The notes under the pieces are model-generated. The model saw nothing but the letters and a program-made list of their open reading frames with translations. It made no database searches and was not told the origin of the DNA. Source: an uncultured Porphyromonadaceae bacterium (GTDB lineage: Bacteria > Bacteroidota > Bacteroidia > Bacteroidales > Muribaculaceae). From it: DNA of 64,000 bases. The stretch covers positions 9,514-73,513 of the forward strand of contig CAMHQD010000007.1 in assembly GCA_946187345.1 (NCBI GenBank). Reading direction: 5' to 3'. The position numbers were made by a program, and so were the translations under genes. Shown one piece after another: positions 1,343-61,622 of this stretch. Every line of letters begins with the position of its first letter. The first letter of the stretch is position 1.

Positions 1343-1348
1343 AAAAAG

Positions 1349-1418
1349 TTGACCGTTCACCGTTTACCGTTTACCGAAAGTAGACGCCACGGTTAACTGT
1401 CAACGGTAAACGGTAAAC
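1349..1418. repeat. TTTACCG-hairpin repeat (family 2), full copy
   Basis: gttgaccgttcaccgtttaccgtttaccg / loop / cggttaactgtcaacggtaaacggtaaac forms an imperfect hairpin of about 70 nt. It ends 12 nt before the ATG at 1431. Confidence 0.8.
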
Positions 1419-2583: not shown

Positions 2584-3588
2584 ATGAAAAAGACAATTTT
2601 ATCATTGATGATGGTGGGAGCGGCTCTCGCGGTCGCTGCACAGAGCGCACCCGTGGTGGCACCGGCGCCACTGCGAGCCGGGGACAAGGTCGCCGTGATG
2701 TCGATTGCCAGTACGCCGCGCGACTCTGTCGCCGAGCGTGCCGCCGCCGTGCTCGAGCAGTGGGGCTTCAAGCCCGTGATTATGCCGCACGTGACGGCTA
2801 ACCATCACGGGTTTGCCGGCACGGTGGAGGAACGCCTGAGCGACTTGATGACGTGCCTGCATGACCCCGAGGTGAAAGCGATCATCTCGACGCGCGGCGG
2901 TTACGGCACATCGATGCTGCTGGAGCCGCTCACCCGCGACACTCTGGCGCGCTACGGTAACAAGTGGATTGTGGGCTACAGCGATATCACGGCCATGCAT
3001 AGCGCGATGGTGTGTGCCGGACACCAGAGCCTGCACGCCAACATGGGCGGCTACATCGGTTCGCACAGTGCCACCGACAGCCTCAACCTGCTGCTGCGCG
3101 ACGTGCTGATGGGCAAGCGCCCCACCTACACTGTGCCCGGTCACGAGTTCAACCGGCCCGGCTCGGCCACCGGCATCGTCGTGGGCGGTAATATGGCGGT
3201 GTTCAGCAACATCGCCGGTAGCCGCGACTTTGACTTCCTTGACCGCGACAACATCGCCGATCGCGACATCATCCTCTTCTTTGAGGACGTGGGCGAGAAC
3301 ATCTCGCGCGTGAGCAGCATGTTCACCCAACTTGTGGTGAAAGGCGTGATGAAGCGCGTGAAAGGTGTCATCGTTGGCCGCTTCACAGAGTATTCTCCCT
3401 CCAACGGCTATGAGACGATGGAGGCGATGCTGCGCGAGCGCCTCGCACCTTACGGCGATATTCCCATCTGCTTTGACTTCCCCGTGAGCCACGACGAGAG
3501 TTGGAACTATCCGATGATTGTTGGCGCCACGGTCACACTCTCGGTTCCGGCCGACTGTGGCCCGGTCACGCTCATCTACCACGAATAG
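2584..3588 (+). CDS. LD-carboxypeptidase (peptidase S66, LdcA/MccF family), secreted
   Basis: 334 aa with a signal peptide (MKKTILSLMMVGAALAVAAQS). It has the GYSDITAMH nucleophile-Ser motif and the overall S66 layout with a C-terminal His region (FDFPVSHDE). Confidence 0.8.
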   Translation: MKKTILSLMMVGAALAVAAQSAPVVAPAPLRAGDKVAVMSIASTPRDSVAERAAAVLEQWGFKPVIMPHVTANHHGFAGTVEERLSDLMTCLHDPEVKAIISTRGGYGTSMLLEPLTRDTLARYGNKWIVGYSDITAMHSAMVCAGHQSLHANMGGYIGSHSATDSLNLLLRDVLMGKRPTYTVPGHEFNRPGSATGIVVGGNMAVFSNIAGSRDFDFLDRDNIADRDIILFFEDVGENISRVSSMFTQLVVKGVMKRVKGVIVGRFTEYSPSNGYETMEAMLRERLAPYGDIPICFDFPVSHDESWNYPMIVGATVTLSVPADCGPVTLIYHE

Positions 3589-3644: not shown

Positions 3645-4103
3645 ATGGTTAGAACATTTATTTTAATGGTGACGATGTTGCTGTGCGCGACGGGCGCCGA
3701 GGCGGCGAGTTACCTCTACCGTGGCAACTCGACTTACACGAGCGACATCCTCTACACGTGGGATGGCCGTCACGTCTATAGTGGCCGCTCCACCTATTCG
3801 AGCGACATCCTCTACACGTGGGACGGCCGCCACGTCTATAGCGGCCGCTCCACCTATTCGAGCGACATCCTCTACACGTGGGACGGCCGTTACGTTTATA
3901 ACGGCAACTCTACCTACTCGAGCGACATACTCTGCACTTGGGACGGCCGTCACGTCTATCGTGGCCGTTCCACCTATTCGAGCGACATCCTCTGCACGGT
4001 GAGCAAGGGTCACGTTTACCGCGGCCGCAGCGAGTATACGAGCGACATCCTCTACACGTTCAGCGGTTCCCTTCCCATACCGGTGCTGCTACTGCTGCTG
4101 TGA
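3645..4103 (+). CDS. Secreted protein built from about seven tandem 20-aa repeats (YxGxSTYSSDILYTWDGRHV)
   Basis: I chose the ATG at 3645 (MVRTFILMVTMLLCATGAEA signal peptide) over the track start at 3501, which overlaps the upstream gene and a REP. The body is a 60-bp periodic coding repeat with a hydrophobic C-terminus, LPIPVLLLLL. Confidence 0.55.
   Translation: MVRTFILMVTMLLCATGAEAASYLYRGNSTYTSDILYTWDGRHVYSGRSTYSSDILYTWDGRHVYSGRSTYSSDILYTWDGRYVYNGNSTYSSDILCTWDGRHVYRGRSTYSSDILCTVSKGHVYRGRSEYTSDILYTFSGSLPIPVLLLLL
3711..4065 (+). repeat. 60-bp tandem coding repeat, about 6-7 units
   Basis: Units such as cacgtctatagtggccgctccacctattcgagcgacatcctctacacgtgggacggccgc recur head to tail. The central copies are nearly identical. 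Confidence 0.85.
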
Positions 4104-4871
4104 ACGGCCGGTGGTGATGGTGAGGCGGGCTTGCTCGACGAGGAAGGTAAAGAAGCGGAGCATGGGGTTGGCGGGGTCGGCTGCGACGAAGTTCTCGGGG
4201 TGCCACTGCACGGCAAGAATGGGCCGCTCGGGATAGCCGTCGAGCATTTCGATGACAGCGTCGGGGCTCCAAGCGGTAGCCGTGAGGCACGGCGCGATTT
4301 TCTTGACGGCTTGATGATGGCGACTGTTGACTCCGAGCGATGTCACTCCCATCACTTCGGCCGACTTGGTACCGGGTTCGATATAGACATCGTGGGCAGC
4401 GGCGGCGCGCGGCTCTGAGACCTTGTGAGCGACAACCGACGGCACCTGTGATGGCAGGTCCTGCCACAGCGAGCCTCCCAGAGCCACGTTGAGCACCTGC
4501 ATACCGCGGCAGACGCCTAATATCGGTATTCGGCGCGCCACGGCACGCTCTATCAACGCCATCTCGAAGGTGTCGCGCACGGCGTTCACCTCGCCCAGCA
4601 TCGGGTGTGGCGGCTCGCCATAATAAGCGGGGTCGATGTCCGCGCCACCCGATAGCAGCAAGCCGTCGACGCTCGCTATCATCTCATCTATCGCCGCAGT
4701 ATCGCAAGTGGCCTGCAGCAACAGCGGTTTGCCGCCGGCCATGGTCACCGCGGTGAAGTAGTCGATGCCAACGGACTGCTCGTCGGCATCCGGCGAGGCG
4801 GTGATACCAATTACCGGCGATTGTGCGAGCGCTTGCAATCCCATAAAACAAAATGCGATTATCGTTTTCAT
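4089..4871 (-). CDS. Class I glutamine amidotransferase / gamma-glutamyl hydrolase (peptidase C26, PuuD-like), secreted
   Basis: GVCRGMQVLNVALGGSL (Cys nucleophile), HHQAV and VQWHPE (His/Glu) motifs, plus an N-terminal signal peptide. Its 3' end overlaps the convergent repeat-protein gene by 15 nt. Confidence 0.8.
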   Translation of the reverse strand: MKTIIAFCFMGLQALAQSPVIGITASPDADEQSVGIDYFTAVTMAGGKPLLLQATCDTAAIDEMIASVDGLLLSGGADIDPAYYGEPPHPMLGEVNAVRDTFEMALIERAVARRIPILGVCRGMQVLNVALGGSLWQDLPSQVPSVVAHKVSEPRAAAAHDVYIEPGTKSAEVMGVTSLGVNSRHHQAVKKIAPCLTATAWSPDAVIEMLDGYPERPILAVQWHPENFVAADPANPMLRFFTFLVEQARLTITTGRSQQQ

Positions 4872-4872
4872 G

Positions 4873-4908
4873 AAAGGTTTACCGTTGACCGTTTACCGTT
4901 GACCGTTT
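4873..4908. repeat. TTTACCG-hairpin family, half copy
   Basis: aaaggtttaccgttgaccgtttaccgttgaccg lies directly upstream of the minus-strand start codon at 4871. Confidence 0.6.
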
Positions 4909-6240: not shown

Positions 6241-6873
6241 ATGGCAAACTATAATGCCAGCGATGCCGTCACGCTTTATCCCGACGGTAAATACCGGTGG
6301 GTGTATGAGATGAACCTCTACACAAACCCAACGATTTTGTTCCTGGTGTTGAAGATTTTCTTTTGGATTTGCTTCGGCCTGTGGGTGTTCATGACGTTGC
6401 TCACGGCGTGCGAGTCGCGGCACTTTGTCGACGATTGGCTGAACATGAGCAAGTTCGCGCTAATCTTCACCGCCGGCTTCCTCGCTTTGGTCACAATCGG
6501 TTACTATTTCTACGCCTTGATAATGGGCGGCCGCTACTGTGTCCTCTTTGAGATGGACGACAAGGGCGTGCTGCACCAGCAGTTACTCAAGGATGTGAAG
6601 AAGGCCCACGTGCTCGCGGCGCTCACCTCGCTGACCGGCGCACTCAGAGGCAATCTCACCGCCACGGGAATCGGCCTCAATCTTGCCACGCGTACCCAGC
6701 AGTATAGCGACTTTGCCTCGGTGACCTCTGTGGAACTATATCGCAACCGTGGCTTAATCAAGGTGAACGCTCCGCTCAACTATAATCAAGTGTACGCCTC
6801 GCCTGCCGACTTTGACCGCGTCCTCAATCACATTCTGGCCCACATTCCAGCCACAGCCACCATCCACCGTTAG
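6241..6873 (+). CDS. Membrane protein, unknown function
   Basis: I chose the ATG at 6241 (MANYNASDAV...), downstream of the -7 box, over the track start at 6121. It has three hydrophobic helices followed by a soluble C-terminal domain. Confidence 0.55.
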   Translation: MANYNASDAVTLYPDGKYRWVYEMNLYTNPTILFLVLKIFFWICFGLWVFMTLLTACESRHFVDDWLNMSKFALIFTAGFLALVTIGYYFYALIMGGRYCVLFEMDDKGVLHQQLLKDVKKAHVLAALTSLTGALRGNLTATGIGLNLATRTQQYSDFASVTSVELYRNRGLIKVNAPLNYNQVYASPADFDRVLNHILAHIPATATIHR

Positions 6874-8072
6874 TCGCCGAGAAAGGCGAAGTGGGCAGGG
6901 ATGTCTCCGGTGCGCACTTGCCAGAGCAGCGTGCCGTCGCCCTTGAGGCAGTAGAGGGTGCCGGGGGTGACGTAGGAGCGGGCATCGGCGATGAGGATGT
7001 CGCCGGTGACGGGGTTGACGGCGATGCCGTAGGGTCGCTGAATGGCGTCTTCGGTGCCGTCGGTGATAAAGCCGTCGTTCACCACTTGCATTGTGGCGGT
7101 GTTGACGATGAGGTATCGCACGTCGCCGGCGGTGCGGTTCACCTCGCTCCACTGGCTGCTGACCACGTATAGCGAGTCGCCCCGCATGGCCATTGAGGCG
7201 ACGGGCACGTCAAGCGTGGCGACGATGCGGCGCTTGCGGGTGTCGTAGGCGTAGAGGCGTCCCGGCGTGTCGAGGTAGTCGCCACGCGAACTCACCCAGA
7301 GCACGCCGCGGTTGTCGCCGCGCACGCATTGCAGGTTGATGTCTATCTTGACGCGCTCAGTCTCGCGGAACGTGGCGAGGTCGATGACGCTAAGTGTGTT
7401 CTCATAGTTCGGCACCATGTATCCGCCCGAATTGGCGACGTAGATGCGGTCGCCCACGATTTCCAGTTCGTCGGGTTGGAATCCCACGATGCAGCGGTCG
7501 ACGACCTCAAGTGTGGCGGTGTCTACCTTGGCCACATATCCCAGTTGCTTGTAGTTCTCATCAATCTGGACGGGTCCGGCGTAACTGGTGACGTAGGCAT
7601 AGCGGCCGTGGAAGCGGATGTTGCGGCAGTTGGGAATGTCGATTTGTCCGATTTTGCGGACGCTCATGCGGTCCATCACGTCCACCTTGTTGCTGCAGTT
7701 GACCACGGCATAGAGGCGCGTGCCGTAGATGGCGAGGTCGTTGCCCACGTCGCCGAGTTCCTTGGGCACGTCGGGGTTGGCGAAGGCGAACACGTTGCGG
7801 GTGTACCGGCCGGAGGCGTAGTTGTAGTAGTCGATTGTGGCCTTGTTGGTGCCCATGTTACCCTCGTTGAGCAGGAAGAAGCCGCGCACGCTGGTGAGTT
7901 CGGGTCGTGCCACGTCGACGTGCTCGGGGATGAAGATGACATCGTCGTGGCGGCAGGAGACCGACAGCAGGCCTATCGCGAGGGCAGCCACGAGGTGGCT
8001 GCACAGCGAACGTAGGCCTATCGGTAAACGGTAAACGGTAAACGGTAAACCTTTCATTTTTAGAAGTCGCAT
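6870..8072 (-). CDS. BtuG-like surface lipoprotein (YncE/beta-propeller type), last gene of the B12 operon
   Basis: About 400 aa with a lipobox (LLSVSC). The sequence periodicity is typical of a beta-propeller (repeated hydrophobic-strand/Gly-Asp turns). It lies immediately downstream of btuB, as btuG does in Bacteroides. An alternative start at 8057 (MKGLPF...) avoids overlap with btuB. Confidence 0.6.
   Translation of the reverse strand: MRLLKMKGLPFTVYRLPIGLRSLCSHLVAALAIGLLSVSCRHDDVIFIPEHVDVARPELTSVRGFFLLNEGNMGTNKATIDYYNYASGRYTRNVFAFANPDVPKELGDVGNDLAIYGTRLYAVVNCSNKVDVMDRMSVRKIGQIDIPNCRNIRFHGRYAYVTSYAGPVQIDENYKQLGYVAKVDTATLEVVDRCIVGFQPDELEIVGDRIYVANSGGYMVPNYENTLSVIDLATFRETERVKIDINLQCVRGDNRGVLWVSSRGDYLDTPGRLYAYDTRKRRIVATLDVPVASMAMRGDSLYVVSSQWSEVNRTAGDVRYLIVNTATMQVVNDGFITDGTEDAIQRPYGIAVNPVTGDILIADARSYVTPGTLYCLKGDGTLLWQVRTGDIPAHFAFLGD
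8023..8050. repeat. Perfect heptanucleotide array (GGTAAAC)x4
   Basis: ggtaaacggtaaacggtaaacggtaaac. On the coding strand, (GTTTACC)4 encodes GLPFTVYRLP at the extreme 5' end of the BtuG-like ORF. Confidence 0.9.
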
Positions 8073-10123
8073 CGCAGGGTGATTTTGAAGTTGCGGCCGG
8101 GCATGGGGTAGTTTTGGATTACCTCATACTGCTGGTTGAAGATGTTGTTCACGGCGAGCGTCAGTCGCCAGTTGGCTTTCCACAACGCGTGTGAGGCGGT
8201 GAGCGCCAGGTCGTGGGTGTACCAGGGCTGCTCGTGGTTGGCGGGGATGTTGGCCGATGTGTGGTATCGCTCGCCCACGTAGACGAAACTGTAGTTCAAC
8301 TCGAGCCATCTCCACGCGGCGTGACCGAGCACACTGCCGTTGTGCCAAGGCACGTATGCGATTTGTCCGCCATAGGTGCCTCCATCGTGTGTGTCGGATG
8401 GATCGCTGCGGTCGCGCGCGCTCTGATAGGTGTAGTTGAGCGTGGCGTCGAGCGTCAGGTCGCGATGTGGCTTGACGGCGAGCATGGCGGTGAGGTCGAT
8501 GCCGGTGATGCGCACCCGGCCGATGTTCATCATCATCCAGCGGTACTGGCTGCTGCCGGTTGGCACGGCGATGATTTTGTCAGTGATGCGGTTATGGTAG
8601 GCGTCGGCGGTGAGTTTGACGGCGGTGATGCCGGTGGCGCCGGTTGTGGCGGCATACCATTGATACTGTGCTCCAACGTTCCACTGGGTGGCCATCTCGG
8701 GTCGCAGTGATGCGTTGCCGATGTCGGTGTAGTAGAGGTCGTTGAATGTGGGCATACGGAAGGCACGCTTGAAGAAGGCGCGCAGGGTGAGGTCGGCGGC
8801 GGTGGTGGGGCGGTAACTGATGATAACGGCGGGCGTGAAGCGGTCAAGGCGCTTGACGTGTGCCGCGACGAGTTCGTCGCCACGGCGGTTGCTGTAGCGG
8901 TCGGCCACGTGCGTCCATAGCAGGCTTGCCTGCGCCTTGAGGCCTCGCCAAGTGGCGGCGGTGGCCAGGGCGGTGAGCACGGTGTGGCGCGTGGGCCGAG
9001 CGAAGTTGGCCAGCGTGGCGTCGAGTGTGTTCCAGCGGTAGTCGACGGCTGCGCTGGCGTCCCAGCCGTCCCTCAGCGTGTATTTTGCCGCGCCGCTGGC
9101 GTATGCCTCCCACTGCGTGAAACGGTTGTCGACGTAGAGTAGGGTAGTGTCCGGGTTGAGGTATCGCATCCAGTCGCGTGCCACTTTGGCACTGACGAGC
9201 GTGGTGAGGCGTTCGGAGCATCGGTGCTGCCAGTTGCCTTGCAGGAAGGCGTTGCGGTCCCACTGTCGCTGGGCGTTGCGCCACACGTTATTGACGATGG
9301 CACCAGGTATGCCTCGCTCGCTGTCGTAATAGTAGCCTTGTGCGGTCCATCGTCCGCCTCGCTCGGTGCCGTGCAATGCGGCCTCGACGCGCAGTGCCTG
9401 CACATCGCCGTTGCGGCGCACGGCCGTTGTGTCCCACGCCAGAGTGCCGTCGCTGAAGCGCTTGCGGTATCTGAAGTGATATTTGCCGTGGGCACTCATC
9501 CACTCGGCGCTCGCACTGAGCGAGACTGCTTGCGAGAGGCGTTGCTCGAATCTCACGCTGGGGTTGAACAGGCCAAAGGAGCCGGTGCGCAGGGTGATGT
9601 TGACGTTGGTGCGTTTGCCCTCACGGAAGCGTGGCAGGCGTGACTGCAGGTAGATTGAGCCGCTGGTGCCGAAGTCGCGCGCGGGCTGGAGGATGTCGCT
9701 CTTTTGTCCGTTGTAGAGGTCGATAGCCTCGATATTGTCGAGCGAGAAGCGGCTGAGGTCGATTTGGCCGTTCTGGGCGTTGCCCAGTTCGAGACCGTCG
9801 TAGAACACGCCCATATGGTTGCTGCCCATCGAGCGCATATCCACGGTCTTGATGCCTCCCACGCCGCCGTAGTCCTTGAGTTGCACGCCACTGAAGTAGC
9901 GAATGGCGTCGGCCACGCTGCCGGTGCCGCCCAGCGTCTCGAGTTGCTTTCCCTCAAGACGTTGCGACGGGATGACTTCGGCGTATGGCTTGAAGGCTCG
10001 CACGACGACCTCCTCGAGATACACCGAGTCGAGTGTCTGGCCTCCCTCCTGCGCGAAGCAAAGCGCGAAGCAAGAAGCAAGAAACAAGAGGCAAGAAGTG
10101 CGAAGCAGAGAGTAGTGTCTCAT
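8060..10123 (-). CDS. btuB: TonB-dependent outer-membrane receptor, cobalamin type
   Basis: 687 aa with a signal peptide, a TonB-box-like LEEVVVRA, a plug domain (IRYFSGVQLKDYGGVGGIKTVDMRSMG) and a C-terminal barrel ending in an aromatic residue (LRCDF). It sits in an operon behind a cobalamin riboswitch. Confidence 0.8.
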   Translation of the reverse strand: MRHYSLLRTSCLLFLASCFALCFAQEGGQTLDSVYLEEVVVRAFKPYAEVIPSQRLEGKQLETLGGTGSVADAIRYFSGVQLKDYGGVGGIKTVDMRSMGSNHMGVFYDGLELGNAQNGQIDLSRFSLDNIEAIDLYNGQKSDILQPARDFGTSGSIYLQSRLPRFREGKRTNVNITLRTGSFGLFNPSVRFEQRLSQAVSLSASAEWMSAHGKYHFRYRKRFSDGTLAWDTTAVRRNGDVQALRVEAALHGTERGGRWTAQGYYYDSERGIPGAIVNNVWRNAQRQWDRNAFLQGNWQHRCSERLTTLVSAKVARDWMRYLNPDTTLLYVDNRFTQWEAYASGAAKYTLRDGWDASAAVDYRWNTLDATLANFARPTRHTVLTALATAATWRGLKAQASLLWTHVADRYSNRRGDELVAAHVKRLDRFTPAVIISYRPTTAADLTLRAFFKRAFRMPTFNDLYYTDIGNASLRPEMATQWNVGAQYQWYAATTGATGITAVKLTADAYHNRITDKIIAVPTGSSQYRWMMMNIGRVRITGIDLTAMLAVKPHRDLTLDATLNYTYQSARDRSDPSDTHDGGTYGGQIAYVPWHNGSVLGHAAWRWLELNYSFVYVGERYHTSANIPANHEQPWYTHDLALTASHALWKANWRLTLAVNNIFNQQYEVIQNYPMPGRNFKITLRCDF

Positions 10124-10162
10124 CTACTAATTGTTCTTAGAGTTCTAAGAATTCTAAGTGTT

Positions 10163-11383
10163 CTATGGAGTTTGGCTTCCGCCGTTGATGATGGTTTCTA
10201 ATATGGCGTTGACGTCGCCCACGTCGATGTTGCCATCGTGGTTGACGTCGGCGAGGGCAGTGACGCCGGGGTTGCCCAGACAGATGTCAAGCACGGCGTT
10301 GACGTCGCCCACGTCCACCTTGCGGTCGCCGTTAAGGTCGCCCTTGAGCCAGTCGAGCGGCGCGTCGGGGTGGAAGTCGCGTCCGCCGCGCACCTCGGTG
10401 GATGTCTCGCCAAGCGATGCCACCGTTTGGTTCATCGCGTTGTAGACTTTGATGAAGTCCACCCACGGGAGGTAAACCGCTTGTCCCTCGCTGTTGACAG
10501 CCCAACTGATGTCGAAGCCGTCGCTATAAATGCCCGGGTTGACCTCATCACCCTCACTGGCCTGGTCGCGGCTGGGCTTGTTGTCGACATATCCCCAGTC
10601 GAAGAATTGCAGTTCCACCATGCCGTTCACCGGCTTGACGTTGCCGCGCAGCCGTGCGCCGGAGAAGGTGAGCGTCTGCACGTCATCATCGAGCCATAGC
10701 GGCCAGTAGTCCTGCTTGTGGTACTCGAGTTTCTGGACGTAGCCGTTACGTTTCTTTGGGTTGTCGTCGTTGCTCTCCCATCGGATATACTGCGTGTCGT
10801 CAAACGGTCGGCTGCCGGGCACGGCCACGTGGTCGGCAGCCGGCTTAAAGTAGGTGATGGTGAAGTCGTGCTGGGTGCCCTCGTTGTCATACTCGCTGCC
10901 GGCGAGTTCAAACCACTCGTCGTCGGGGAGACCGTTGCCGTTGGCGTCGATGCTCACGAGGACGATGCCCGGCTCGGCGCTACCGCCGGTTGTGCTGCCG
11001 TCGGCCACAATAGCGTTGCCGTATATCTCGAAGTCGTATTCGCCCGGTACGTTCACAACAGGGTGGTCAAACGCCACGGTGACGCTGCCGCCGTATCCGC
11101 CCAGGCTGATTGTGCCCGGGCAGTAGGTGACAACGGTCTCGGTGACGACAGTGCCGTCAGGCAGTTCGCCCTCGATGGTCTCGGTTGTGCCGCAGATTGC
11201 CTCGGCTGCGCGGGCAAGCACTTTGCCGTAGGGGTCACCTGGGTTGCAGGCCGGTATCTGGTTGACAAACTGACCGGGCGCCGGAGCATAGTCCAGCACT
11301 CGGGTCAGGTAAGGCGCATGCTCCGTGGCGTGCGCCACGGAGCAAAGCGCGAAGAACGAAGTACAAAGTACGAACTTTTTCAT
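10163..11383 (-). CDS. Secreted protein with C-terminal dockerin-like double Ca-binding repeat
   Basis: 406 aa with a signal peptide. The C-terminus is GDLNGDRKVDVGDVNAVL...ADVNHDGNIDVGDVNAILETII, two DxNxDGxxDxxD loop-helix units as in type I dockerins. It is the second gene of the riboswitch-controlled operon. Confidence 0.7.
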   Translation of the reverse strand: MKKFVLCTSFFALCSVAHATEHAPYLTRVLDYAPAPGQFVNQIPACNPGDPYGKVLARAAEAICGTTETIEGELPDGTVVTETVVTYCPGTISLGGYGGSVTVAFDHPVVNVPGEYDFEIYGNAIVADGSTTGGSAEPGIVLVSIDANGNGLPDDEWFELAGSEYDNEGTQHDFTITYFKPAADHVAVPGSRPFDDTQYIRWESNDDNPKKRNGYVQKLEYHKQDYWPLWLDDDVQTLTFSGARLRGNVKPVNGMVELQFFDWGYVDNKPSRDQASEGDEVNPGIYSDGFDISWAVNSEGQAVYLPWVDFIKVYNAMNQTVASLGETSTEVRGGRDFHPDAPLDWLKGDLNGDRKVDVGDVNAVLDICLGNPGVTALADVNHDGNIDVGDVNAILETIINGGSQTP

Positions 11384-11451
11384 TTTCTTTCTGTTCTGAG
11401 AAATCCGATAGTTCTGATAGTTCTAAGATTTCTAAAGTACTGAACAAATAG

Positions 11452-12991: not shown

Positions 12992-13039
12992 AAAAATCGG
13001 TTGCACGCTACATGCTACGTGCTACATGCTAAACAGCTG

Positions 13040-13320
13040 TATCTCCCGACCCTAATTCCACGAGGGTGCGATGAGCGTTACCACGTCGCGTTGACGTTGG
13101 AACGATGGCAGGCAGGTCTTCTGGCTTGTCCCTTGCTTCGGCGCCGCCTTCCCACTCTCTAACCGAGAGCAGTGACGTTTGATTAATTACGAAGTACTAT
13201 GTACTAAGTAATGCGCGTTGCAAGTTGTTGGCGATGCTTTGTACTTTGTACTTGCAATCAGCCGTGGGACTTACAGCAGCGGGTACTGCTCAGGAATTTC
13301 ACCTGATTCCCTAAACCTTG
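13040..13320 (-). promoter_or_regulatory. Cobalamin (B12) riboswitch 1
   Basis: The minus strand reads TAGGGAATCAGGTGAAATTCCTGAGCAGTACCCGCTGCTGTAAG ... GGGAAGG ... AAGCCAGAAGACCTGCCTGCC. These are the conserved cobalamin-aptamer core and the B12 box (plus-strand about 13108-13129). Confidence 0.85.
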
Positions 13321-13331
13321 CTATCACGGTG

Positions 13332-13339
13332 CAAAATTA
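13332..13339 (-). promoter_or_regulatory. Candidate -7 promoter box (TAATTTTG) for riboswitch 1 operon
   Basis: The reverse complement matches TAnnTTTG, about 15-20 nt upstream of the aptamer 5' end. The same arrangement is seen at riboswitch 2. Confidence 0.55.
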
Positions 13340-13562
13340 CAATTTTTTTACATCACAACCAACTATCTCACAGTTTTTTTTACTATTTAATTATTCTAAC
13401 TCTCACATTCAGTGGGGAAATCACCCCACAAACAAGTTTTTGGCAAAATAAGGAAAAAGTGAGAGCCGCCCGTCGCAGTTTCGACCGGGTGGCCCTCACA
13501 CTCTACAAAAACAAGTTGTTAGTTGTTCAGGTGTGGCGGGCACCGTCCCGCCACACAACACG

Positions 13563-20129: not shown

Positions 20130-20470
20130 TGCCATTCCATGAATCGCTACCTGCTACCTGCTACATGCTACAAGCTATGGAATGTATCTCAGTGTCCCTA
20201 ATGCCGCGAGGGATCAACGAGCCTGCCATGCCGTCATGGCGCATGGCACAACAGCAGGCAGGTCTTCTGGCTTGTCCCCTTGCGTTGGCGCGGCCTTCCC
20301 ACCCGTTCCTAAACTCGGGCAGTGGCGAAATTAGTACTAAATACTAATTAATGCGCTCCGCAAGTGATTGCCGATGCTTCGTACTTTGTATGTGGTACTT
20401 CGTACTTGCTATCAGCGTGGGACTTACAGCAGCGGGTACTGCTCAGGATTTGCACCTGATTCCCTATTAT
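20130..20470 (-). promoter_or_regulatory. Cobalamin (B12) riboswitch 2
   Basis: The minus strand reads GGGAATCAGGTGCAAATCCTGAGCAGTACCCGCTGCTGTAAG ... GGGAAGG ... AAGCCAGAAGACCTGCCTGC (B12 box at plus-strand about 20256-20273). It is collinear with riboswitch 1. Confidence 0.85.
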
Positions 20471-20508
20471 GGGTTGCCGTGTGGCAACCCCACCTTGCTA
20501 TCACGCTG

Positions 20509-20516
20509 CAAAATTA
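20509..20516 (-). promoter_or_regulatory. Candidate -7 promoter box (TAATTTTG) for riboswitch 2
   Basis: It has the same sequence and context (gctatcacgCTGCAAAATTAca) as the box upstream of riboswitch 1. Confidence 0.55.
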
Positions 20517-22599: not shown

Positions 22600-22705
22600 T
22601 TTAACATGAAAAATTTACCGTTGACTGTTTACCGTTTACTGAAACATAAACGCACGGTCAACGGTCGACGGTAAACGGTAAACTATTCATGTTAAAAATC
22701 GTGCG
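22600..22705. repeat. TTTACCG-hairpin family, full copy with extended outer stem
   Basis: ttttttaacatgaaaaatttaccgttgactgtttaccgtttactgaaacataaacgcacggtcaacggtcgacggtaaacggtaaactattcatgttaaaaa, located between the small basic-protein gene and rng. Confidence 0.8.
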
Positions 22706-23434: not shown

Positions 23435-24223
23435 CTATTTGTCGCTGTCGACGAGTCGCAGTGTCTCACCGTCCCACACCGCATATGCGCCCGTGCCGTG
23501 GAGCCATGCGCCGAGGCGGGCGACGGTCATCCCTGTTGTGGGGTGGCTAACTCCGGGCACGTGGAGGTGGCCCATGACGACGTATTCGATGTCGGGGTGG
23601 TCGTGGGCGATTTGTCGCAAGGCGATATCTTGCTCGTTGAGCAGTGACGTGGCGAGGGAGCGCTCGCGCGCCTCGTTGCGGCTGGTGCGGTTGTGGCTGC
23701 TCCAATGGGTTGCCACCCAGTGGCTGATGTTGGGGTGCAATGAACTGTAGAGCGCCTGGCAGACGGGGTTGAGAAAGCACCACTTCATGAAGCGGTAGTT
23801 CCACGGCTGGCGGCCGATGTCGTCGCCGTGTGAGAGCAGGAAGCGGTGGCCGTCGAGGGTGATAAACATCTTGCCGGTGACCACGGTGATGCCGATTTCG
23901 TCGCGCAGGTAGTCACGCAGCCACACGTCGTGGTTGCCTGTCATCCACATGATTTCGACGCCATCGTCAGCCAACTCGGCCAGTTTGCCGAAAAAGCGGA
24001 TATGGCCGCGCGGCACGACGCTATCGTACTCATACCAATAGTCGAGCACGTCGCCGAGCATCATCAGCCGGCGGGCGTCGCCGCGGATGCTCTCGAGGAA
24101 GTCGGTGACCAGTTTCTCATGCGCGCGCGCGTCATTAATATATCTCGCGCCCAAATGCATGTCGCTGATGAAATAAGTCTTTGACCTTATGACGCTCGGA
24201 TTATTTAATTGTGAATTATGCAT
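23435..24223 (-). CDS. lpxH: UDP-2,3-diacylglucosamine diphosphatase
   Basis: YFISDMHLG ... LGDVLDYW ... GNHD ... GH motifs belong to the calcineurin-like metallophosphoesterase LpxH family. The length of 262 aa fits. Confidence 0.8.
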   Translation of the reverse strand: MHNSQLNNPSVIRSKTYFISDMHLGARYINDARAHEKLVTDFLESIRGDARRLMMLGDVLDYWYEYDSVVPRGHIRFFGKLAELADDGVEIMWMTGNHDVWLRDYLRDEIGITVVTGKMFITLDGHRFLLSHGDDIGRQPWNYRFMKWCFLNPVCQALYSSLHPNISHWVATHWSSHNRTSRNEARERSLATSLLNEQDIALRQIAHDHPDIEYVVMGHLHVPGVSHPTTGMTVARLGAWLHGTGAYAVWDGETLRLVDSDK

Positions 24224-24236
24224 TGTGAGTTATGCA

Positions 24237-24557
24237 TTACATGAAGCCCATTTCGAGTTTTGCCTCCTCGCTCATCATATCGGGGTTCCATTCCGGTTCC
24301 CAGACGAGGTTGACATCGACGGCCGTGACGCCGTCGATAGAGGCGACCTTGACGCGGACGTCCTCGAGAATAAAGTCGGCCATCGGGCATGTCGGGGCGG
24401 TGAATGTCATGTCGATGGCCACAGCGCCGTCGTCGGTGACCTCGATGCGGTAAATCAGTCCCATATCATAGACGTTGACGGGCATCTCGGGGTCATAGAC
24501 TGTCTTGAGCATAGCCACGGTTTGCTCCTCTATATTAAGTTTTTCTTCGTTTGTCAT
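24237..24557 (-). CDS. DUF59 / SufT-like Fe-S cluster assembly protein
   Basis: 106 aa. VYDPEMPVNVYDMGLIY ... TFTAPTCPMADF is the conserved DUF59 (MIP18/PaaD-like) signature including the Cys. Confidence 0.8.
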   Translation of the reverse strand: MTNEEKLNIEEQTVAMLKTVYDPEMPVNVYDMGLIYRIEVTDDGAVAIDMTFTAPTCPMADFILEDVRVKVASIDGVTAVDVNLVWEPEWNPDMMSEEAKLEMGFM

Positions 24558-28379: not shown

Positions 28380-28387
28380 GATATAAA

Positions 28388-28455
28388 AGGTTTACCGTCG
28401 ACCGTTCTCCGTTTACCGAAACGTAAACGCAACGGTCAACGGTAAACGGGAAACT
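28388..28455. repeat. TTTACCG-hairpin family, full copy in the susC-susD spacer
   Basis: aggtttaccgtcgaccgttctccgtttaccgaaacgtaaacgcaacggtcaacggtaaacgggaaac fills most of the 99-nt susC-susD intergenic gap. Confidence 0.8.
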
Positions 28456-31412: not shown

Positions 31413-31422
31413 TAAAATAAAA

Positions 31423-31616
31423 GGTTTACCGTTGACCGTTTACCGTTGACCGAAACGTAAACGCAACGGTCAACGGTCAACGATAAACTTCTAACACCGT
31501 TTAACGTTACCGAAACGTAAACGCAACGGTCAACGGTCAACGGTAAACTTCTAACATCGTTTAACGTTACCGAAACGTAAACGCAACGGTCAACGGTCAA
31601 CGGTAAACGGTAAACT
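31423..31616. repeat. Three tandem copies (60-bp period) of the TTTACCG-hairpin element
   Basis: ...taccgaaacgtaaacgcaacggtcaacggtcaacgRtaaac occurs three times (31441-31500, 31501-31560, 31561-31616). The array ends 18 nt before the ATG at 31634. Confidence 0.9.
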
Positions 31617-40892: not shown

Positions 40893-40947
40893 CAATTTAA
40901 TTCATAATTCATAATGCACAATGCATAATTATAATGCCGTTTGCATC

Positions 40948-47217: not shown

Positions 47218-47225
47218 CAAAGGTA
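47218..47225 (-). promoter_or_regulatory. Candidate -7 promoter box (TACCTTTG)
   Basis: The reverse complement of caaaggta lies about 53 nt upstream of the start at 47165. Confidence 0.45.
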
Positions 47226-47307
47226 GTGAAAAAGTACGAAGTACGAAGTAAAAAGTACGAAGTAAATACATGAAAACTTCGTACTTTTTACTTCGTACTT
47301 CGTACTT
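47222..47307 (-). terminator. Long perfect hairpin built from GTACGAA heptamers; likely rplS terminator
   Basis: aaagtacgaagtacgaagtaaaaagtacgaagt / loop aaatacatgaaa / acttcgtactttttacttcgtacttcgtacttt gives a stem of about 33 bp. On the minus strand it is followed by ttttcac. Confidence 0.6.
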
Positions 47308-47316
47308 TGCAAAGCA

Positions 47317-47706
47317 TCAGCCCTTGAGAGCCTCGGCGTCGGCCTTGATCTTGGCCATGTTGACGCGGCGCTCTTTGATGCGAGCCTTCTTGCCGGTGAG
47401 ACCACGCAGGTAGTACAACTTGGCGCGACGCACCTTGCCATACTTGTTGACGGTGATGCTCTCGATAAACGGCGACTCTAACGGGTAGATACGTTCCACG
47501 CCGATGTTACCGCTCACCTTGCGCACGGTGAAGCGCTTCTTCTCGCCCTCGCCGGTAATCTTGATGACCACGCCGCGGTAGTTCTGGATACGCTCCTTGT
47601 CACCCTCCTTGATGCGGTAAGCCACGGTGATGGTGTCGCCCGGGCCGAACTGCGGGTGCTTCTTGCCGGTGGCAAAAGCCTGCTCTGCTACTTTAATCAG
47701 ATCCAT
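47317..47706 (-). CDS. rplS: 50S ribosomal protein L19
   Basis: MDLIKVAEQ...[29 protein letters not shown]...[18 protein letters not shown] is the canonical bL19 sequence. Confidence 0.95.
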
Positions 47707-47801
47707 GATTGTTGTTAACTTTCTTGTGTAAGTTATTAATAATCACTCTGCAACATTCACAAGCCACACGTTCTTCTTGCCAGAGGTTGCCAAAGCGACT
47801 G

Positions 47802-49928: not shown

Positions 49929-49988
49929 TAATTGTTGTCGTTTTATAAAACTAAGAAGACTAAGAACTCTAAGAATGCTAAGTACTCT

Positions 49989-54507: not shown

Positions 54508-54535
54508 TTCGTTATTCGTTATTCGTTATTCGTTT
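54508..54535. repeat. Heptanucleotide array (TTCGTTA)x3-4 in the 5' UTR
   Basis: ttcgttattcgttattcgttattcgttt begins 3 nt upstream of the minus-strand start codon at 54505. The mRNA reads (TAACGAA)n. Confidence 0.85.
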
Positions 54536-54597
54536 TTCAAAACGGCGAGGCCGTTTTGCACACCACTCTTTTGTTACTCTTCTATTCTCTCTACAGC

Positions 54598-54632: not shown

Positions 54633-55253
54633 TTATGCGTCGTAGATGCGGCGGCCGTCGGGTTTCTCCGGCTCCGGCTTGGGCTTTTGGTTTTTCTTGT
54701 CGTGTTGCTGCTTCTCGGCGTCCTCACGCTTTTGCACCTTTTGGCGCTTGAGGCCTTTCTTTGGACGGTCTTTGCCGATGGCAAAACTCTTGATGATATT
54801 GTCCGTAGTCTCACGGTTGCCGTAGAGGTAGTTGATGGTCACCTCCACAATCAGGTCCTTCTTGTCGCTCACCAGGCAGGCGATGACGGCCCGCGAGCCG
54901 TCGGGCATGGTGCCGTCGATGGCAAACGTCTTGAACCCTTTCACTTTATACTTCGGGGTGGAGGTGTCAAACATGCCGTAGCCGAGCGCGACGCTCTGCA
55001 GATGCTCGGGCAGGTAGTCTTTCTCCTTGGCGCCCTGGCGCTTGGTGAACAGTTGCACCGTGACGGCCATCTCGTCCCAGCGAATGTCGAAGCGCGTGTT
55101 GCTGTTATAGGTCACCCAACCCTCGTCCGGTGTCTCGAACGACAGTTCGTGGGCACTCCAGTTGAACACTTCGGCCGAGGCAGTGGCTGCCCATAGCAAA
55201 GTACAAAGTACGAAGTACGAAGTACGAAGTATAAAGTCAGACGTCGTTTTCAT
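54633..55253 (-). CDS. Secreted protein with Lys-rich C-terminal tail, unknown function
   Basis: I used the ATG at 55253 (MKTTSDFILRTSYFVLCTLLWAATASA), which overlaps the upstream stop as ATGA. The track's longer start runs through the GH25 gene. The signal peptide is encoded by a GTACGAA heptamer array. Confidence 0.55.
   Translation of the reverse strand: MKTTSDFILRTSYFVLCTLLWAATASAEVFNWSAHELSFETPDEGWVTYNSNTRFDIRWDEMAVTVQLFTKRQGAKEKDYLPEHLQSVALGYGMFDTSTPKYKVKGFKTFAIDGTMPDGSRAVIACLVSDKKDLIVEVTINYLYGNRETTDNIIKSFAIGKDRPKKGLKRQKVQKREDAEKQQHDKKNQKPKPEPEKPDGRRIYDA
55201..55235. repeat. Heptanucleotide array (GTACRAA)x5, three perfect GTACGAA units
   Basis: gtacaaagtacgaagtacgaagtacgaagtataaa. 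On the coding strand it encodes ILRTSYFVLCT of the signal peptide. Confidence 0.9.
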
Positions 55254-58229: not shown

Positions 58230-58253
58230 TTATTTTCGTTTTTCGTTTTTCGA
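58230..58253. repeat. Heptanucleotide array (TTTTCGT)x3 in the yidC 5' UTR
   Basis: ttattttcgtttttcgtttttcgag starts directly upstream of the start codon at 58229. The mRNA reads (ACGAAAA)n. Confidence 0.8.
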
Positions 58254-61515: not shown

Positions 61516-61527
61516 ATAAAAAATCCG

Positions 61528-61622
61528 GTTGCGGCAAAATATAGTTTCGCTATTTTGCCGCAACGGGGTCGAAAATGCGCGTTGCGGCAAAATATAGTTT
61601 CGCTATTCTGCCGCAACGGGGG
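61528..61622. repeat. Two tandem copies (53-bp period) of a 41-bp palindrome
   Basis: gttgcggcaaaatatagtttcgctatt(t/c)tgccgcaacgggg occurs twice. It lies between the maf stop and the ATPase promoter. Confidence 0.85.

What the first reader, a model, noticed from the sequence alone, without database searches (positions are those of the whole stretch)
8023..8050. Heptanucleotide arrays embedded in the 5' coding ends (signal peptides) of exported-protein genes, a possible slipped-strand on/off switch
A perfect (GTTTACC)x4 on the coding strand encodes GLPFTVYRLP at the start of the BtuG-like ORF. (TTCGTAC)x3, flanked by degenerate units, encodes LRTSYFV in the signal peptide of 54633..55253 (nt 55201-55235).

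Degenerate 7-mers of the same kind underlie two other signal peptides. One is in the dockerin protein (ttcgtac tttgtac ttcgttc ttcgcgc, nt about 11345-11378). The other is in BtuB (ttcttgc ttcttgc ttcgcgc tttgctt, nt about 10055-10107).

Because 7 is not a multiple of 3, gain or loss of one unit would frameshift the gene. This is the classic architecture of contingency loci. Alternatively, the arrays show that signal peptides are being built from a genome-wide T/C-rich heptamer word.
Basis: partly seen in the sequence, partly recalled or inferred. Interest (0 to 1): 0.65.

Follow-up and report, generated by a model that had tools for sequence, protein, structure and literature searches.

The report
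Heptamer-array hairpin arms encoding signal peptides
The perfect 7-base repeat at the start of this vitamin-B12 uptake gene is real, but it looks like one arm of a hairpin-forming repeat element scattered between genes in this rumen bacterium, reused as the disposable export-signal part of the protein, and no evidence was found that it is an on/off switch.

Summary
Observation confirmed. (GTTTACC)x4 lies at 8023-8050 on the minus strand, two codons after the only good ATG (8057) of a BtuG-like lipoprotein gene. The signal peptides of the TonB-dependent receptor, the next gene upstream and ORF 54633-55253 are also period-7 DNA.

Period 7 is uniquely enriched in the window: 25 arrays against 0-6 for other periods. 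81% of array bases lie in the 11.7% that is non-coding. The rest lie only in the first ~30 codons of four exported-protein genes.

The array is not a free microsatellite. It aligns in register with five other copies that all have exactly four units. Four of those are full palindromic hairpin elements. The ACTTCGT-type signal-peptide arrays likewise match the 5-unit arms of a hairpin element at 47232-47307.

Within one 90%-identity protein cluster, the receptor-BtuG junction has four alleles. Three of them have array-encoded signal-peptide parts. One differs by 147 nt (21 units, in frame), and its reading frame stays open (permutation p about 0.02).

No +/-1-unit or frameshifted allele was seen. 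Raw reads were not available, so low-frequency slippage is untested.

The contingency-switch reading is not. Closest known kinds are intergenic heptanucleotide repeats (TAACTGA type), REP-like elements and Neisseria opa coding repeats.

The parts
8023..8050 (-). (GTTTACC)x4. A solo left arm of a dispersed palindromic heptamer-array element, translated as GLPFTVYRLP in the n-region of the BtuG-like signal peptide.
7953..8057 (-). Predicted 35-codon lipoprotein signal peptide of the BtuG-like (DUF5074) gene 6870-8057. The ATG at 8057 has an A-rich context. The lipobox Cys is conserved in the homologues inspected.
8060..10123 (-). TonB-dependent receptor (BtuB-like). Its stop TAA (8060-8062) lies 2 nt before the BtuG ATG.
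10051..10107 (-). Degenerate CTTCTTG/CTTCGCG period-7 array encoding the receptor signal peptide (LLRTSCLLFLASCFALCFA).
11345..11378 (-). Degenerate ACTTCGT-family 5-unit arm encoding the signal peptide of gene 10163-11383. It is preceded by ATGAAAAAG, which resembles the loop-proximal flank of the full element.
55197..55237 (-). ACTTCGT-family arm (5-6 units) encoding the signal peptide of ORF 54633-55253. It is identical in a 99.9%-identical strain.
47232..47307 (-). Full palindromic element of the ACTTCGT family: two 5-unit inverted arms and the loop TTTTCATGTATTT. Folding energy is -50 kcal/mol. It lies 10 nt after the rplS stop and is followed by a U-run.
1344..1418 (+). Full palindromic element of the GTTTACC family (4-unit arms) between the stop at 1342 and the ATG at 1431.
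22606..22690 (-). Full palindromic GTTTACC-family element with CATG at both ends.
28383..28454 (+). Full GTTTACC-family element between the SusC-like stop (28379) and the SusD-like ATG (28479). Its loop is GAAACGTAAACGC.
31417..31615 (+). Full GTTTACC-family element with the same loop, followed by a 60-nt-period tandem amplification of the loop plus right arm.
4870..4908 (+). Second solo arm, CATGAAAGG(TTTACCG/TTGACCG)x4. On the minus strand it is the leader of gene 4089-4871 and supplies its ATG.
54508..54538 (-). (AACGAAT)x4 leader array in A-rich orientation, ending 3 nt before the ATG at 54505.
58233..58252 (-). (ACGAAAA)x3 leader array ending 4 nt before the ATG at 58229 (yidC-like gene).

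Best explanation
The (GTTTACC)x4 is a solo arm of a dispersed, REP-like palindromic element whose arms are short heptanucleotide arrays. One family has 4 units of GTTTACC type. A second family has 5 units of ACTTCGT type.

How the elements are used in this rumen Muribaculaceae lineage:
- They occupy the short gaps between genes.
- Complete elements (arm-loop-inverted arm) form strong hairpins after stop codons. A terminator or RNA-stability role is inferred.
- Single arms in the A-rich, stop-containing orientation run up to start codons as structure-poor leaders (role inferred).
- Single arms in the T-rich orientation are free of stop codons in all three frames.

Why T-rich arms suit signal peptides: the elements carry CATG at a boundary, so such an arm brings its own ATG and can be read as the start of the downstream gene. 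A 7-nt unit is read in all three frames, so it gives a 7-residue peptide period. GTTTACC gives VYRLPFT, which is basic and fits the n-region. ACTTCGT/ACTTTGT gives TSYFVL(R/C), which is hydrophobic and fits the h-region. Signal peptides are cleaved off and are constrained only in charge and hydrophobicity, so such insertions are tolerated and then shaped by selection.

At the receptor-BtuG junction the arm replaced an older spacer and moved the start codon to 8057. Other strains carry other element-derived solutions. The arrays turn over by replacement and by expansion in 7-nt steps. In coding positions only frame-preserving states were seen.

Shown here: the repeat anatomy, the element family, the allelic series, and the frame and codon signatures. 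Inferred: translation and export, the leader and terminator roles, and the way elements spread.
For: Distribution
- Period 7 is uniquely enriched.
- 81% of array bases lie in the 11.7% of the window that is non-coding. The rest lie only in the first ~30 codons of four exported-protein genes.

The arrays are arms of elements
- Six GTTTACC-type copies align in register. All share the flank A(T/A)(G/A)AA(A/G)G and have exactly 4 units. Four are full palindromes, two with the same loop.
- GGTAAACCTTTCAT with up to 2 mismatches gives 10 hits against 0.22 expected.
- The signal-peptide arrays of ORF 55253, gene 10163-11383 and BtuG alleles C and D align unit for unit with the two 5-unit arms of the hairpin at 47232-47307. 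Alleles D aside, they share the terminal ACTTTGC. Gene 10163-11383 also shares an ATGAAAA-like flank with the element.

Structure
- Paired arms fold with z-scores of -3.8 to -11.9. The solo arm at 8010-8075 is structure-poor (z +1.4).

Orientation
- 7 of 7 arrays within 30 nt upstream of an ATG are A-rich on the sense strand.
- 4 of 4 coding arrays are T-rich and have no stop codon in any frame.

Allelic series inside one 90%-identity protein cluster
- Allele A: the window.
- Allele B: a C-rich hairpin and a GTG start.
- Allele C: (ACTTYGT)x5 encoding YFVLCTSYFVLC.
- Allele D: a TAATTCA-type array carrying the ATG, plus (ACTTNGT)x5 or about x28.

Signatures of translation
- The 28-unit allele differs by 147 nt (21 units, 49 codons). 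Its BtuG frame has 0 stops against 7 and 2 in the other frames. Only 1.9% of unit-order permutations keep that frame open.
- In h-regions, CGT units are TGT/TGC exactly where CGT would be in frame as Arg (read from the sequences).
- All BtuG homologues inspected have a lipobox Cys followed by R-x-[DE]-[DEQ]-[VI]-IFIPE, 14-32 residues from the start.

Same architecture in unrelated organisms
- Exact (GTTTACC)x4 occurs in at least 120 metagenome contigs of 31-72% GC.
- Examples include MSVYRLPFTVYRK-IVVGFLFLSS, MIFKKKVYRLPFTVYRR-LFVLSTVYCLL and MKTRLPFTVYRLPLK-FVFLVSVLWFLVSGLCGC.
Against: - There is no direct evidence of translation, export or lipidation. No signal-peptide predictor or proteome was available.
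- The start at 8057 is inferred from context only. An in-frame GTG at 7992 cannot be excluded.
- How the elements spread is unknown, and no transposase is linked to them here.
- The simple terminator scan did not flag the array hairpins, because their loops exceed its limit. The terminator role therefore rests on folding and position alone.
- Allele A was seen only in the window and, as fragments, in three runs.
- The frame-preservation and Arg-to-Cys arguments rest on a handful of sequences.
- Consensus contigs cannot reveal minority slipped variants.
Confidence: 0.65

Rival explanations
1. Contingency locus. The heptamer tract gains or loses single units by slipped-strand mispairing during replication. 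This shifts the frame between ATG 8057 and the lipobox and switches the surface lipoprotein on and off in a fraction of cells, as the CTCTT repeats do in the leader-peptide region of Neisseria opa genes.
For: - The 7-nt unit lies inside the ORF, after the only good ATG. There is no upstream ATG in the other two frames, so a +/-1-unit change would give an OFF state.
- The tract is perfect.
- The locus is hypervariable between strains, and one allele shows a large expansion in 7-nt steps.
- The products are surface-exposed B12-uptake proteins, a plausible target for variable expression (my inference).
- The opa precedent: pentameric coding repeats in the region encoding the leader peptide, switching at about 1e-3 per cell per generation (PMC3960869).
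Against: - The tract has only 4 units.
- All six arms of this family in the window have exactly 4 units.
- Allele C is invariant at 5 units in contigs from several samples.
- Three arrays have unchanged copy number in a 99.9%-identical strain.
- Unitigs from two further samples are compatible with 4 units at this site.
- No frameshifted allele was found.
- The only length change in a coding array is a multiple of 21 nt, with the frame kept open.
- Most arrays are non-coding, where frameshifting has no meaning.
- Two of the four signal-peptide arrays are degenerate.
Confidence: 0.15
2. The array is purely a non-coding intercistronic element. BtuG translation would start downstream of the array (GTG 7992, giving MAALAIGLLSVSC). 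The array would act only at the RNA or DNA level, as an unstructured spacer, a ribosome-loading site or a protein-binding site between the receptor gene and btuG. This is what has been proposed for TAACTGA repeats.
For: - In allele B, NCBI annotates a GTG start just upstream of the h-region and no array is present.
- Most arrays in the window are non-coding leaders ending 3-25 nt before start codons.
- The solo arm is structure-poor.
- MacGregor 2015 proposes binding of a post-transcriptional regulator for heptamer repeats upstream of start codons (PMC4679880).
Against: - In the window the allele-B GTG is CTG, so that start is lost.
- The remaining GTG would leave a 13-residue signal with no charged n-region, shorter than any homologue inspected.
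- ATG 8057 follows the receptor gene's stop by 2 nt and has AAAA at positions -1 to -4.
- The array is in the stop-free orientation, whereas leader arrays are in the stop-containing A-rich orientation.
- In the other three genes the arrays are unambiguously inside the ORF.
Confidence: 0.12
3. Artefact or chance. The periodicity would reflect assembly error, or selection on amino-acid composition of signal peptides rather than a DNA-level repeat.
For: Signal peptides are compositionally biased. Metagenome assemblies can mis-handle repeats, and contigs do break at these arrays.
Against: - The same units occur in non-coding DNA, on both strands and as inverted pairs.
- No shuffle reproduces the period-7 excess.
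- Independent assemblies carry identical arrays.
- Most signal peptides in the window are not periodic.
Confidence: 0.02

Closest known systems
Intergenic heptanucleotide direct repeats: TAACTGA repeats of Beggiatoaceae, cyanobacteria and a few Bacteroidetes (MacGregor 2015, PMC4679880); heptamer repeats of Nostoc PCC 7120 (bioRxiv 10.1101/2022.06.06.494920); cyanobacterial STRR sequences (from memory, Mazel et al. 1990)
   Same: - 7-nt tandem units in sets of a few copies.
- Several heptamer families per genome.
- Overwhelmingly intergenic, and often ending a few nucleotides before a start codon.
- One orientation carries stops in all frames. The other is open and is occasionally found at the periphery of ORFs.
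- Strain differences come in 7-nt steps.
- No known mechanism of spread.
   Different: - The units differ (GTTTACC, ACTTCGT, CTTCTTG, TAATTCA and others).
- Here many arrays are the arms of palindromic hairpin elements with a fixed arm length.
- Array-derived segments encode signal peptides, with allelic replacement between strains. Neither paper consulted reports this. The nearest remark there is that repeat-encoded residues lie at the very beginning of one permease.
- The host is a gut Muribaculaceae.
Neisseria opa coding repeats: CTCTT pentamers in the region encoding the leader peptide, phase-variable by slipped-strand mispairing (PMC3960869)
   Same: A tandem repeat whose unit is not a multiple of three lies inside the signal-peptide-coding 5' end of a surface-protein gene, and is pyrimidine-rich.
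   Different: opa tracts change copy number at about 1e-3 per generation and are found out of frame. Here no +/-1-unit variant or OFF allele was found, copy number is fixed at 4 or 5 across element copies and strains, and the same arrays are mostly non-coding.
REP/BIME-type repetitive extragenic palindromes of proteobacteria (from memory)
   Same: Short imperfect palindromes dispersed in many copies. They lie in intergenic gaps, including within operons, just after stop codons. They form stable RNA hairpins and show presence/absence polymorphism between strains.
   Different: The stems here are built from tandem heptamer units. Solo arms occur and are recruited into coding sequence. No REP-associated (RAYT-like) transposase was looked for or seen in the window.
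Haemophilus influenzae hmw1A/hmw2A 7-bp promoter repeats (from memory, Dawid et al. 1999)
   Same: Heptanucleotide tandem repeats upstream of surface-protein genes that modulate expression through copy number.
   Different: Those tracts are long (roughly 10-30 copies), variable between and within strains, and act on transcription. The tracts here have 4-5 units, and no copy-number difference was seen between the strains compared.

Membership tests
Simple-sequence contingency locus (opa-type coding repeat) | A tandem repeat whose unit is not a multiple of 3 lies inside the ORF, downstream of the start codon in use. | tested here: met
   (GTTTACC)x4 begins 2 codons after ATG 8057. The arrays in ORF 55253, the receptor gene and gene 10163-11383 lie within codons 3-25.
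Simple-sequence contingency locus (opa-type coding repeat) | Copy number differs by single units between closely related strains or within a population. | tested here: not met
   Between strains: 5 units in all allele-C contigs, identical copy numbers in a 99.9%-identical strain, and 4 units in all six arms. Within a population this was not testable, because no raw reads were available.
Simple-sequence contingency locus (opa-type coding repeat) | Out-of-frame (OFF) alleles exist. | tested here: not met
   All assembled alleles keep an open frame from an ATG to the lipobox. The 147-nt expansion is in frame.
Simple-sequence contingency locus (opa-type coding repeat) | The tract is long and pure enough for a high slippage rate. 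| tested here: inconclusive
   The BtuG tract has 4 perfect units and ORF 55253 has 3 perfect units. The receptor and gene-10163 arrays are 75-84% pure. No rate data exist for this organism.
Intergenic heptanucleotide direct repeats (TAACTGA/STRR kind) | Tandem 7-nt units are strongly over-represented relative to other periods. | tested here: met
   The density is about 20 times that of 80 other Muribaculaceae loci.
Intergenic heptanucleotide direct repeats (TAACTGA/STRR kind) | The arrays are mostly intergenic and often abut start codons. | tested here: met
   81% of array bases are non-coding. Seven arrays end within 30 nt upstream of an ATG.
Intergenic heptanucleotide direct repeats (TAACTGA/STRR kind) | Strain differences come in 7-nt increments. 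| tested here: met
   L083 and L089 differ by 147 nt, which is 21 x 7. Most other differences are replacements rather than copy-number steps.
Intergenic heptanucleotide direct repeats (TAACTGA/STRR kind) | Same repeat unit as a described family. | tested here: not met
   The units are GTTTACC, ACTTCGT and others, and none is TAACTGA. In viral contigs, x4 arrays were found 32 times for TAACTGA, 2 for GTTTACC, 0 for ACTTCGT and 0 for a control heptamer.
REP-like dispersed palindromic element | Multiple dispersed copies share sequence and form an imperfect palindrome in intergenic DNA. | tested here: met
   Six aligned copies, four of them full palindromes with conserved loops. Hairpin z-scores are -3.8 to -11.9. 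Logan depth rises several-fold to more than 10-fold at the arrays, with many different flanks.
REP-like dispersed palindromic element | An associated mobilising enzyme (RAYT-type). | not tested
   No search for such a gene was made. Only 64 kb of the genome is in hand.
Bacterial lipoprotein (Sec/SPII) signal peptide | A charged n-region, a hydrophobic h-region, and a lipobox Cys at the position conserved in homologues. | tested here: met
   MKGLPFTVYRLPIGLRSLCSH-LVAALAIGLLSV-SC|RHDDVIFIPE. The Cys aligns with the lipobox Cys of the 70 homologues inspected. This was judged by inspection. No predictor was run and no experiment was done.

The most novel reading that the evidence does not exclude
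Heptamer-array palindromic elements would be a widespread, so far undescribed class of small mobile or self-propagating intergenic elements. (GTTTACC)n occurs in contigs of 31-72% GC from soil, water and gut. Their arms carry an ATG and are stop-free and T-rich in one orientation, so they would act as ready-made start-codon-plus-signal-peptide cassettes. That would give a general route to de novo birth and rapid allelic turnover of signal peptides, leaders and terminators at surface-protein genes.
Probability: 0.3. Interest if true: 0.8.

Novelty: new variant of a known kind. Interest (0 to 1): 0.58.

Why it matters
If correct, this shows a concrete route by which non-coding repeat elements become protein-coding N-termini. 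A hairpin element dropped after a stop codon can donate a start codon and a signal-peptide segment to the next gene. Strains of one species then carry different element-derived solutions at the same vitamin-B12 uptake lipoprotein.

It also extends the poorly understood heptanucleotide-repeat phenomenon to gut Bacteroidales. So far that phenomenon has been described for Beggiatoaceae, cyanobacteria and a few Bacteroidetes. The extension links it to palindromic elements with a fixed arm length.

There are two practical consequences:
- Short-read assemblies of rumen Muribaculaceae break at these arrays.
- Gene callers mis-place start codons there. One 90%-identity protein cluster was annotated with lengths of 356, 364, 378, 393, 395, 413 and 414 residues.

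Tried and rejected
- Copy number in public reads: only Logan contigs were offered in three run searches. Contigs end at every array, with depth spikes and many alternative flanks. Minority length variants could therefore not be counted.
- A joint in run X2 that skips 7963-8069: I read it as an alignment artefact of allele C, which shares GCGATG|GTC on both sides, not as a deletion.
- A metagenome scan with a degenerate anchor in the mature BtuG region found nothing.
- Exact-protein look-ups found nothing on record for the window's BtuG (395 and 400 aa versions), its receptor protein and the DUF3078 protein.
- A protein search with a synthetic periodic peptide (TSYFVLC-type), meant to count array-derived signal peptides, returned 6 weak hits from 437 candidates. 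It is uninformative, probably because of composition filters.
- Orientation of (GTTTACC)n relative to the nearest long ORF in 120 metagenome loci: 27-31 T-rich against 17-21 A-rich, with 74 near no ORF start. This is not decisive.
- The terminator consensus scan did not list the array hairpins, because their loops exceed its limit. The terminator role remains an inference.
- The 33-nt identity between the L001 signal of gene 10163-11383 and the L081 BtuG signal was first taken as evidence of cassette transfer. It is equally explained by a shared arm consensus plus selection against in-frame Arg, so it is not used as evidence of transfer.
- One row of alignment A2 (L001:6645-6700) was mis-addressed and is ignored.
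- Literature searches for heptanucleotide repeats with signal peptides, for Muribaculaceae tandem repeats, and for STRR found nothing.
Full report
**1. What is at the coordinates**

The minus strand from 8068 to 7995 reads TTC TAA AA ATG AAA G(GTTTACC)x4 G ATA GGC .... TAA (8060-8062) is the stop of a TonB-dependent receptor (8060-10123, Plug plus barrel). The ATG at 8057 opens a 395-codon DUF5074 (BtuG-like) gene.

Tandem Repeats Finder gives 8022-8050, period 7, 4.1 copies, 100% matches. The translation is MKGLPFTVYRLPIGLRSLCSHLVAALAIGLLSVSC|RHDDVIFIPE.

- ORF 54633-55253: FILRTSYFVLCTLLW from ACTTCGT x3, ACTTTGT, ACTTTGC. Its ATG overlaps the stop of the upstream GH25 gene.
- The receptor: LLRTSCLLFLASCFALCFA from CTTCTTG-type units.
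- Gene 10163-11383: KFVLCTSFFALC from TTCGTAC-type units.

That last gene has no Pfam hit, so the 'dockerin' label is unconfirmed.

The genes form a B12 uptake operon behind a cobalamin riboswitch at 13094-13378.

**2. More than chance, and not confined to signal peptides**

Perfect arrays of at least 3 copies number 9 for period 7. They number 0 for every other period from 4 to 15, and 0 in shuffles. Allowing mismatches, there are 25 period-7 arrays against 0-6 for other periods.

With a rough gene map, 81% of array bases lie in the 11.7% of the window that is non-coding. The remaining 19% lie only within the first ~30 codons of four exported-protein genes. No array lies inside a gene body.

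The window comes from a rumen Muribaculaceae:
- The best relative is JAFTDD010000057 from goat rumen, 93-96% identical.
- The runs that hold the sequence are sheep, bovine and other gut metagenomes.

Eighty loci from other Muribaculaceae also have periods 7 and 14 as the commonest repeat periods, but at about one twentieth of the density.

**3. The arrays are arms of palindromic elements**

Several arrays come as inverted pairs that fold into strong hairpins:

| Region | Energy (kcal/mol) | z-score |
|---|---|---|
| 1340-1430 | -27 | -3.8 |
| 22605-22695 | -31.5 | -5.3 |
| 31415-31500 | -33.6 | -6.2 |
| 47225-47315 | -50 | -11.9 |

The last lies 10 nt after the rplS stop and is followed by a U-run.

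An alignment of the BtuG array with five other GTTTACC-type copies was made:
- All six share the flank A(T/A)(G/A)AA(A/G)G.
- All six have exactly four heptamer units.
- Four continue into a loop and an inverted right arm. Two of these have the identical loop GAAACGTAAACGC.
- The BtuG copy and the copy at 4870-4908 are solo arms.

GGTAAACCTTTCAT with up to 2 mismatches occurs 10 times against 0.22 expected.

The second family behaves the same way:
- The signal-peptide arrays of ORF 55253, gene 10163-11383 and two BtuG alleles from other strains align unit for unit with the two 5-unit arms of the hairpin at 47232-47307.
- Apart from allele D, they share the terminal ACTTTGC.
- Gene 10163-11383 also shares an ATGAAAA-like flank with the element.

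The elements carry CATG at a boundary, so a solo arm brings an ATG with it.

**4. An orientation rule**

All seven arrays that end within 30 nt upstream of a start codon are A-rich on the sense strand, and most carry stop codons. All four coding arrays are T-rich and have no stop in any frame. By my own calculation, Fisher's exact test on 7/0 against 0/4 gives about 0.003.

The solo arm at the BtuG start is less structured than its shuffles (z +1.4).

A 7-nt unit is read in all three frames in turn, which gives a 7-residue period:
- GTTTACC gives VYRLPFT (one Arg, no acidic residue), suited to an n-region.
- ACTTCGT/ACTTTGT gives TSYFVL(R/C), suited to an h-region.

**5. Comparison of strains at the receptor-BtuG junction**

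One 90%-identity cluster of the BtuG protein contains annotated lengths of 356, 364, 378, 393, 395, 413 and 414 residues. The DNA behind them shows four alleles of the spacer plus signal peptide:

| Allele | Where seen | Spacer and signal peptide |
|---|---|---|
| A | the window | ATG + (GTTTACC)x4 |
| B | L001 | a C-rich hairpin (CCCCCTCC-TGAA-GGAGGGGG), no array, GTG start (MCSHLVAAL...) |
| C | L081, L082, L084-L088, several samples | another spacer + (ACTTYGT)x5 encoding HYFVLCTSYFVLCTLCMVSC, always 5 units, only point changes |
| D | L083 | a TAATTCA-type array that carries the ATG (MHNQ...) + (ACTTNGT)x5 |
| D, expanded | L089 | the same with about 28 units |

Points that bear on translation:
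- The L083/L089 difference is 147 nt, which is 21 units or 49 codons.
- The BtuG frame of the L089 array has no stop, while the other frames have 7 and 2. Only 1.9% of unit-order permutations leave that frame open.
- In the h-regions of allele C and of the L001 orthologue of gene 10163-11383, CGT units are TGT/TGC exactly where CGT would be read as Arg (sequences).

Both are signatures of translation through the arrays.

In the window, the GTG start of allele B has become CTG. This fits a move of the start to 8057.

All homologues inspected are lipoproteins whose Cys precedes R-x-[DE]-[DEQ]-[VI]-IFIPE, with signals of 14-32 residues. The window's 35-residue signal is just beyond that range.

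**6. The switch hypothesis**

The architecture allows it. A +/-1-unit change would break the frame, and no ATG exists in the other frames. The following speak against it:
- Arm length is fixed at four units in six copies.
- Allele C is invariant at five units across samples.
- A 99.9%-identical strain (L244) has the same copy number at three arrays, with one point change.
- Unitigs from two other samples are compatible with four units at this site.
- No out-of-frame allele exists among the assembled sequences.

The test that matters, minority length variants in raw reads, could not be run. Every run offered is held as Logan contigs, and these end at the arrays. At the arrays, depth rises from several-fold to more than 10-fold, with many different flanks. 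That pattern does show that the same arrays sit at many loci in these communities. I put the switch at about 0.15.

**7. Beyond this genome**

Those contigs have 219 period-7 arrays against 1-11 for each of periods 4-13.

Many of the arrays lie just upstream of long ORFs or in their first codons. Three have the same architecture as the window:
- MSVYRLPFTVYRK-IVVGFLFLSS
- MIFKKKVYRLPFTVYRR-LFVLSTVYCLL
- MKTRLPFTVYRLPLK-FVFLVSVLWFLVSGLCGC

Orientation relative to the nearest ORF start is not decisive in that set.

In viral contigs, x4 arrays were found 32 times for TAACTGA, 2 for GTTTACC, 0 for ACTTCGT and 0 for a control heptamer.

**8. Comparison with what is known**

Three known kinds are closest:
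- Intergenic heptanucleotide direct repeats have been described for Beggiatoaceae, cyanobacteria and five Bacteroidetes. They lie mostly just upstream of start codons, differ between strains in 7-nt steps, and have no known mechanism of spread (PMC4679880). They have also been described for Nostoc.
- The opa genes of Neisseria have CTCTT repeats in the region encoding the leader peptide, and these do switch (PMC3960869).
- REP/BIME elements (from memory) are the nearest analogue for the palindromic, post-stop-codon copies.

The present case shares features with each. It differs in that the palindrome stems are heptamer arrays of fixed length, and in that solo arms are recruited as signal-peptide coding sequence with allelic turnover. 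I rate it a new variant of a known kind.

**9. Verdict**

The on/off-switch reading is not supported by the evidence available.

Best explanation (0.65): element arms have been co-opted as cleavable signal-peptide segments and as leaders.

Still inferred rather than shown: translation and export, the leader and terminator functions, and how the elements spread.

Noticed in passing
window 10132-10167, 11407-11424, 49951-49977; L001 and L081: 9-nt tandem arrays (CTNAGAANN, each unit holding a stop codon) run from the stop codon of one gene to the ATG of the next. The array before the receptor gene has 4 units in the window, 6 in L001 and 4 in L081. This is the only simple copy-number polymorphism seen.
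   Followed up: partly
window 13094-13378 (-) and 20240-20513 (-): Two cobalamin riboswitches are about 90 nt longer than the Rfam model. Heptamer-array hairpins sit in a variable region (13184-13253, 20377-20407). In L001 the same loop holds a 9-mer array (CTAGGGTTC type) instead. ATGTAGC-type arrays lie between each aptamer and its start codon (13007-13031, 20146-20177).
   Followed up: partly
window 3600, 4961, 11453, 37993, 38079, 53166, 54603, 56087: A second dispersed family: C-rich hairpins CCCCTCC-N4-GGAGGGG, often nested inside CCTCCCCCC...GGGGGGAGG. There are eight copies, mostly just after stop codons. Allele B of the receptor-BtuG spacer carries one.
   Followed up: partly
L090-L209 (metagenome contigs): Exact (GTTTACC)x4 occurs in at least 120 contigs of 31-72% GC from very different habitats, with further period-7 arrays of related units beside it. 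The taxa and the reason for this particular heptamer are unknown.
   Followed up: partly
window 24208-24238 (-), 40898-40937 (+); L083 about 2975-3010: TAATTCA/TAATGCA arrays carry ATG codons and give the N-termini MHNSQL, MHNYNA and MHNQRL in three unrelated genes. For 40921 the real start may be the later MKYILS.
   Followed up: no
L081 about 2865-2883, against window 8060-8075: In allele C the replaced segment reaches into the last codons of the receptor gene. The C-terminus changes from ...LRCDF* to ...LRWSPN*, which removes the terminal aromatic residue usual in such barrels.
   Followed up: no
window 31435-31608: A 60-nt unit (loop plus right arm of the GTTTACC-family element) is tandemly repeated 2.9 times at 96% identity, upstream of the gene at 31634.
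   Followed up: no
window 6869; L001 11160-21155: Synteny with the 93-96%-identical relative L001 ends exactly at the stop of the BtuG-like gene. L081 and L089 have an ATPase_2/AAA gene there instead of the window's neighbours.
   Followed up: no
window 3723-4059, 41098-41585 and 61520-61621: Longer tandem repeats unrelated to the heptamers. The 60/180-nt repeat (3723-4059) lies inside ORF 3645-4103, and the 213-nt repeat (41098-41585) lies inside ORF 40921-42390. A 53-nt repeat lies between genes near 61520.
   Followed up: no
window 47751-47789 (-): An Rfam L19-Flavobacteria ribosomal leader lies upstream of rplS (47317-47706). The gene is followed by the strongest array hairpin in the window.
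   Followed up: no
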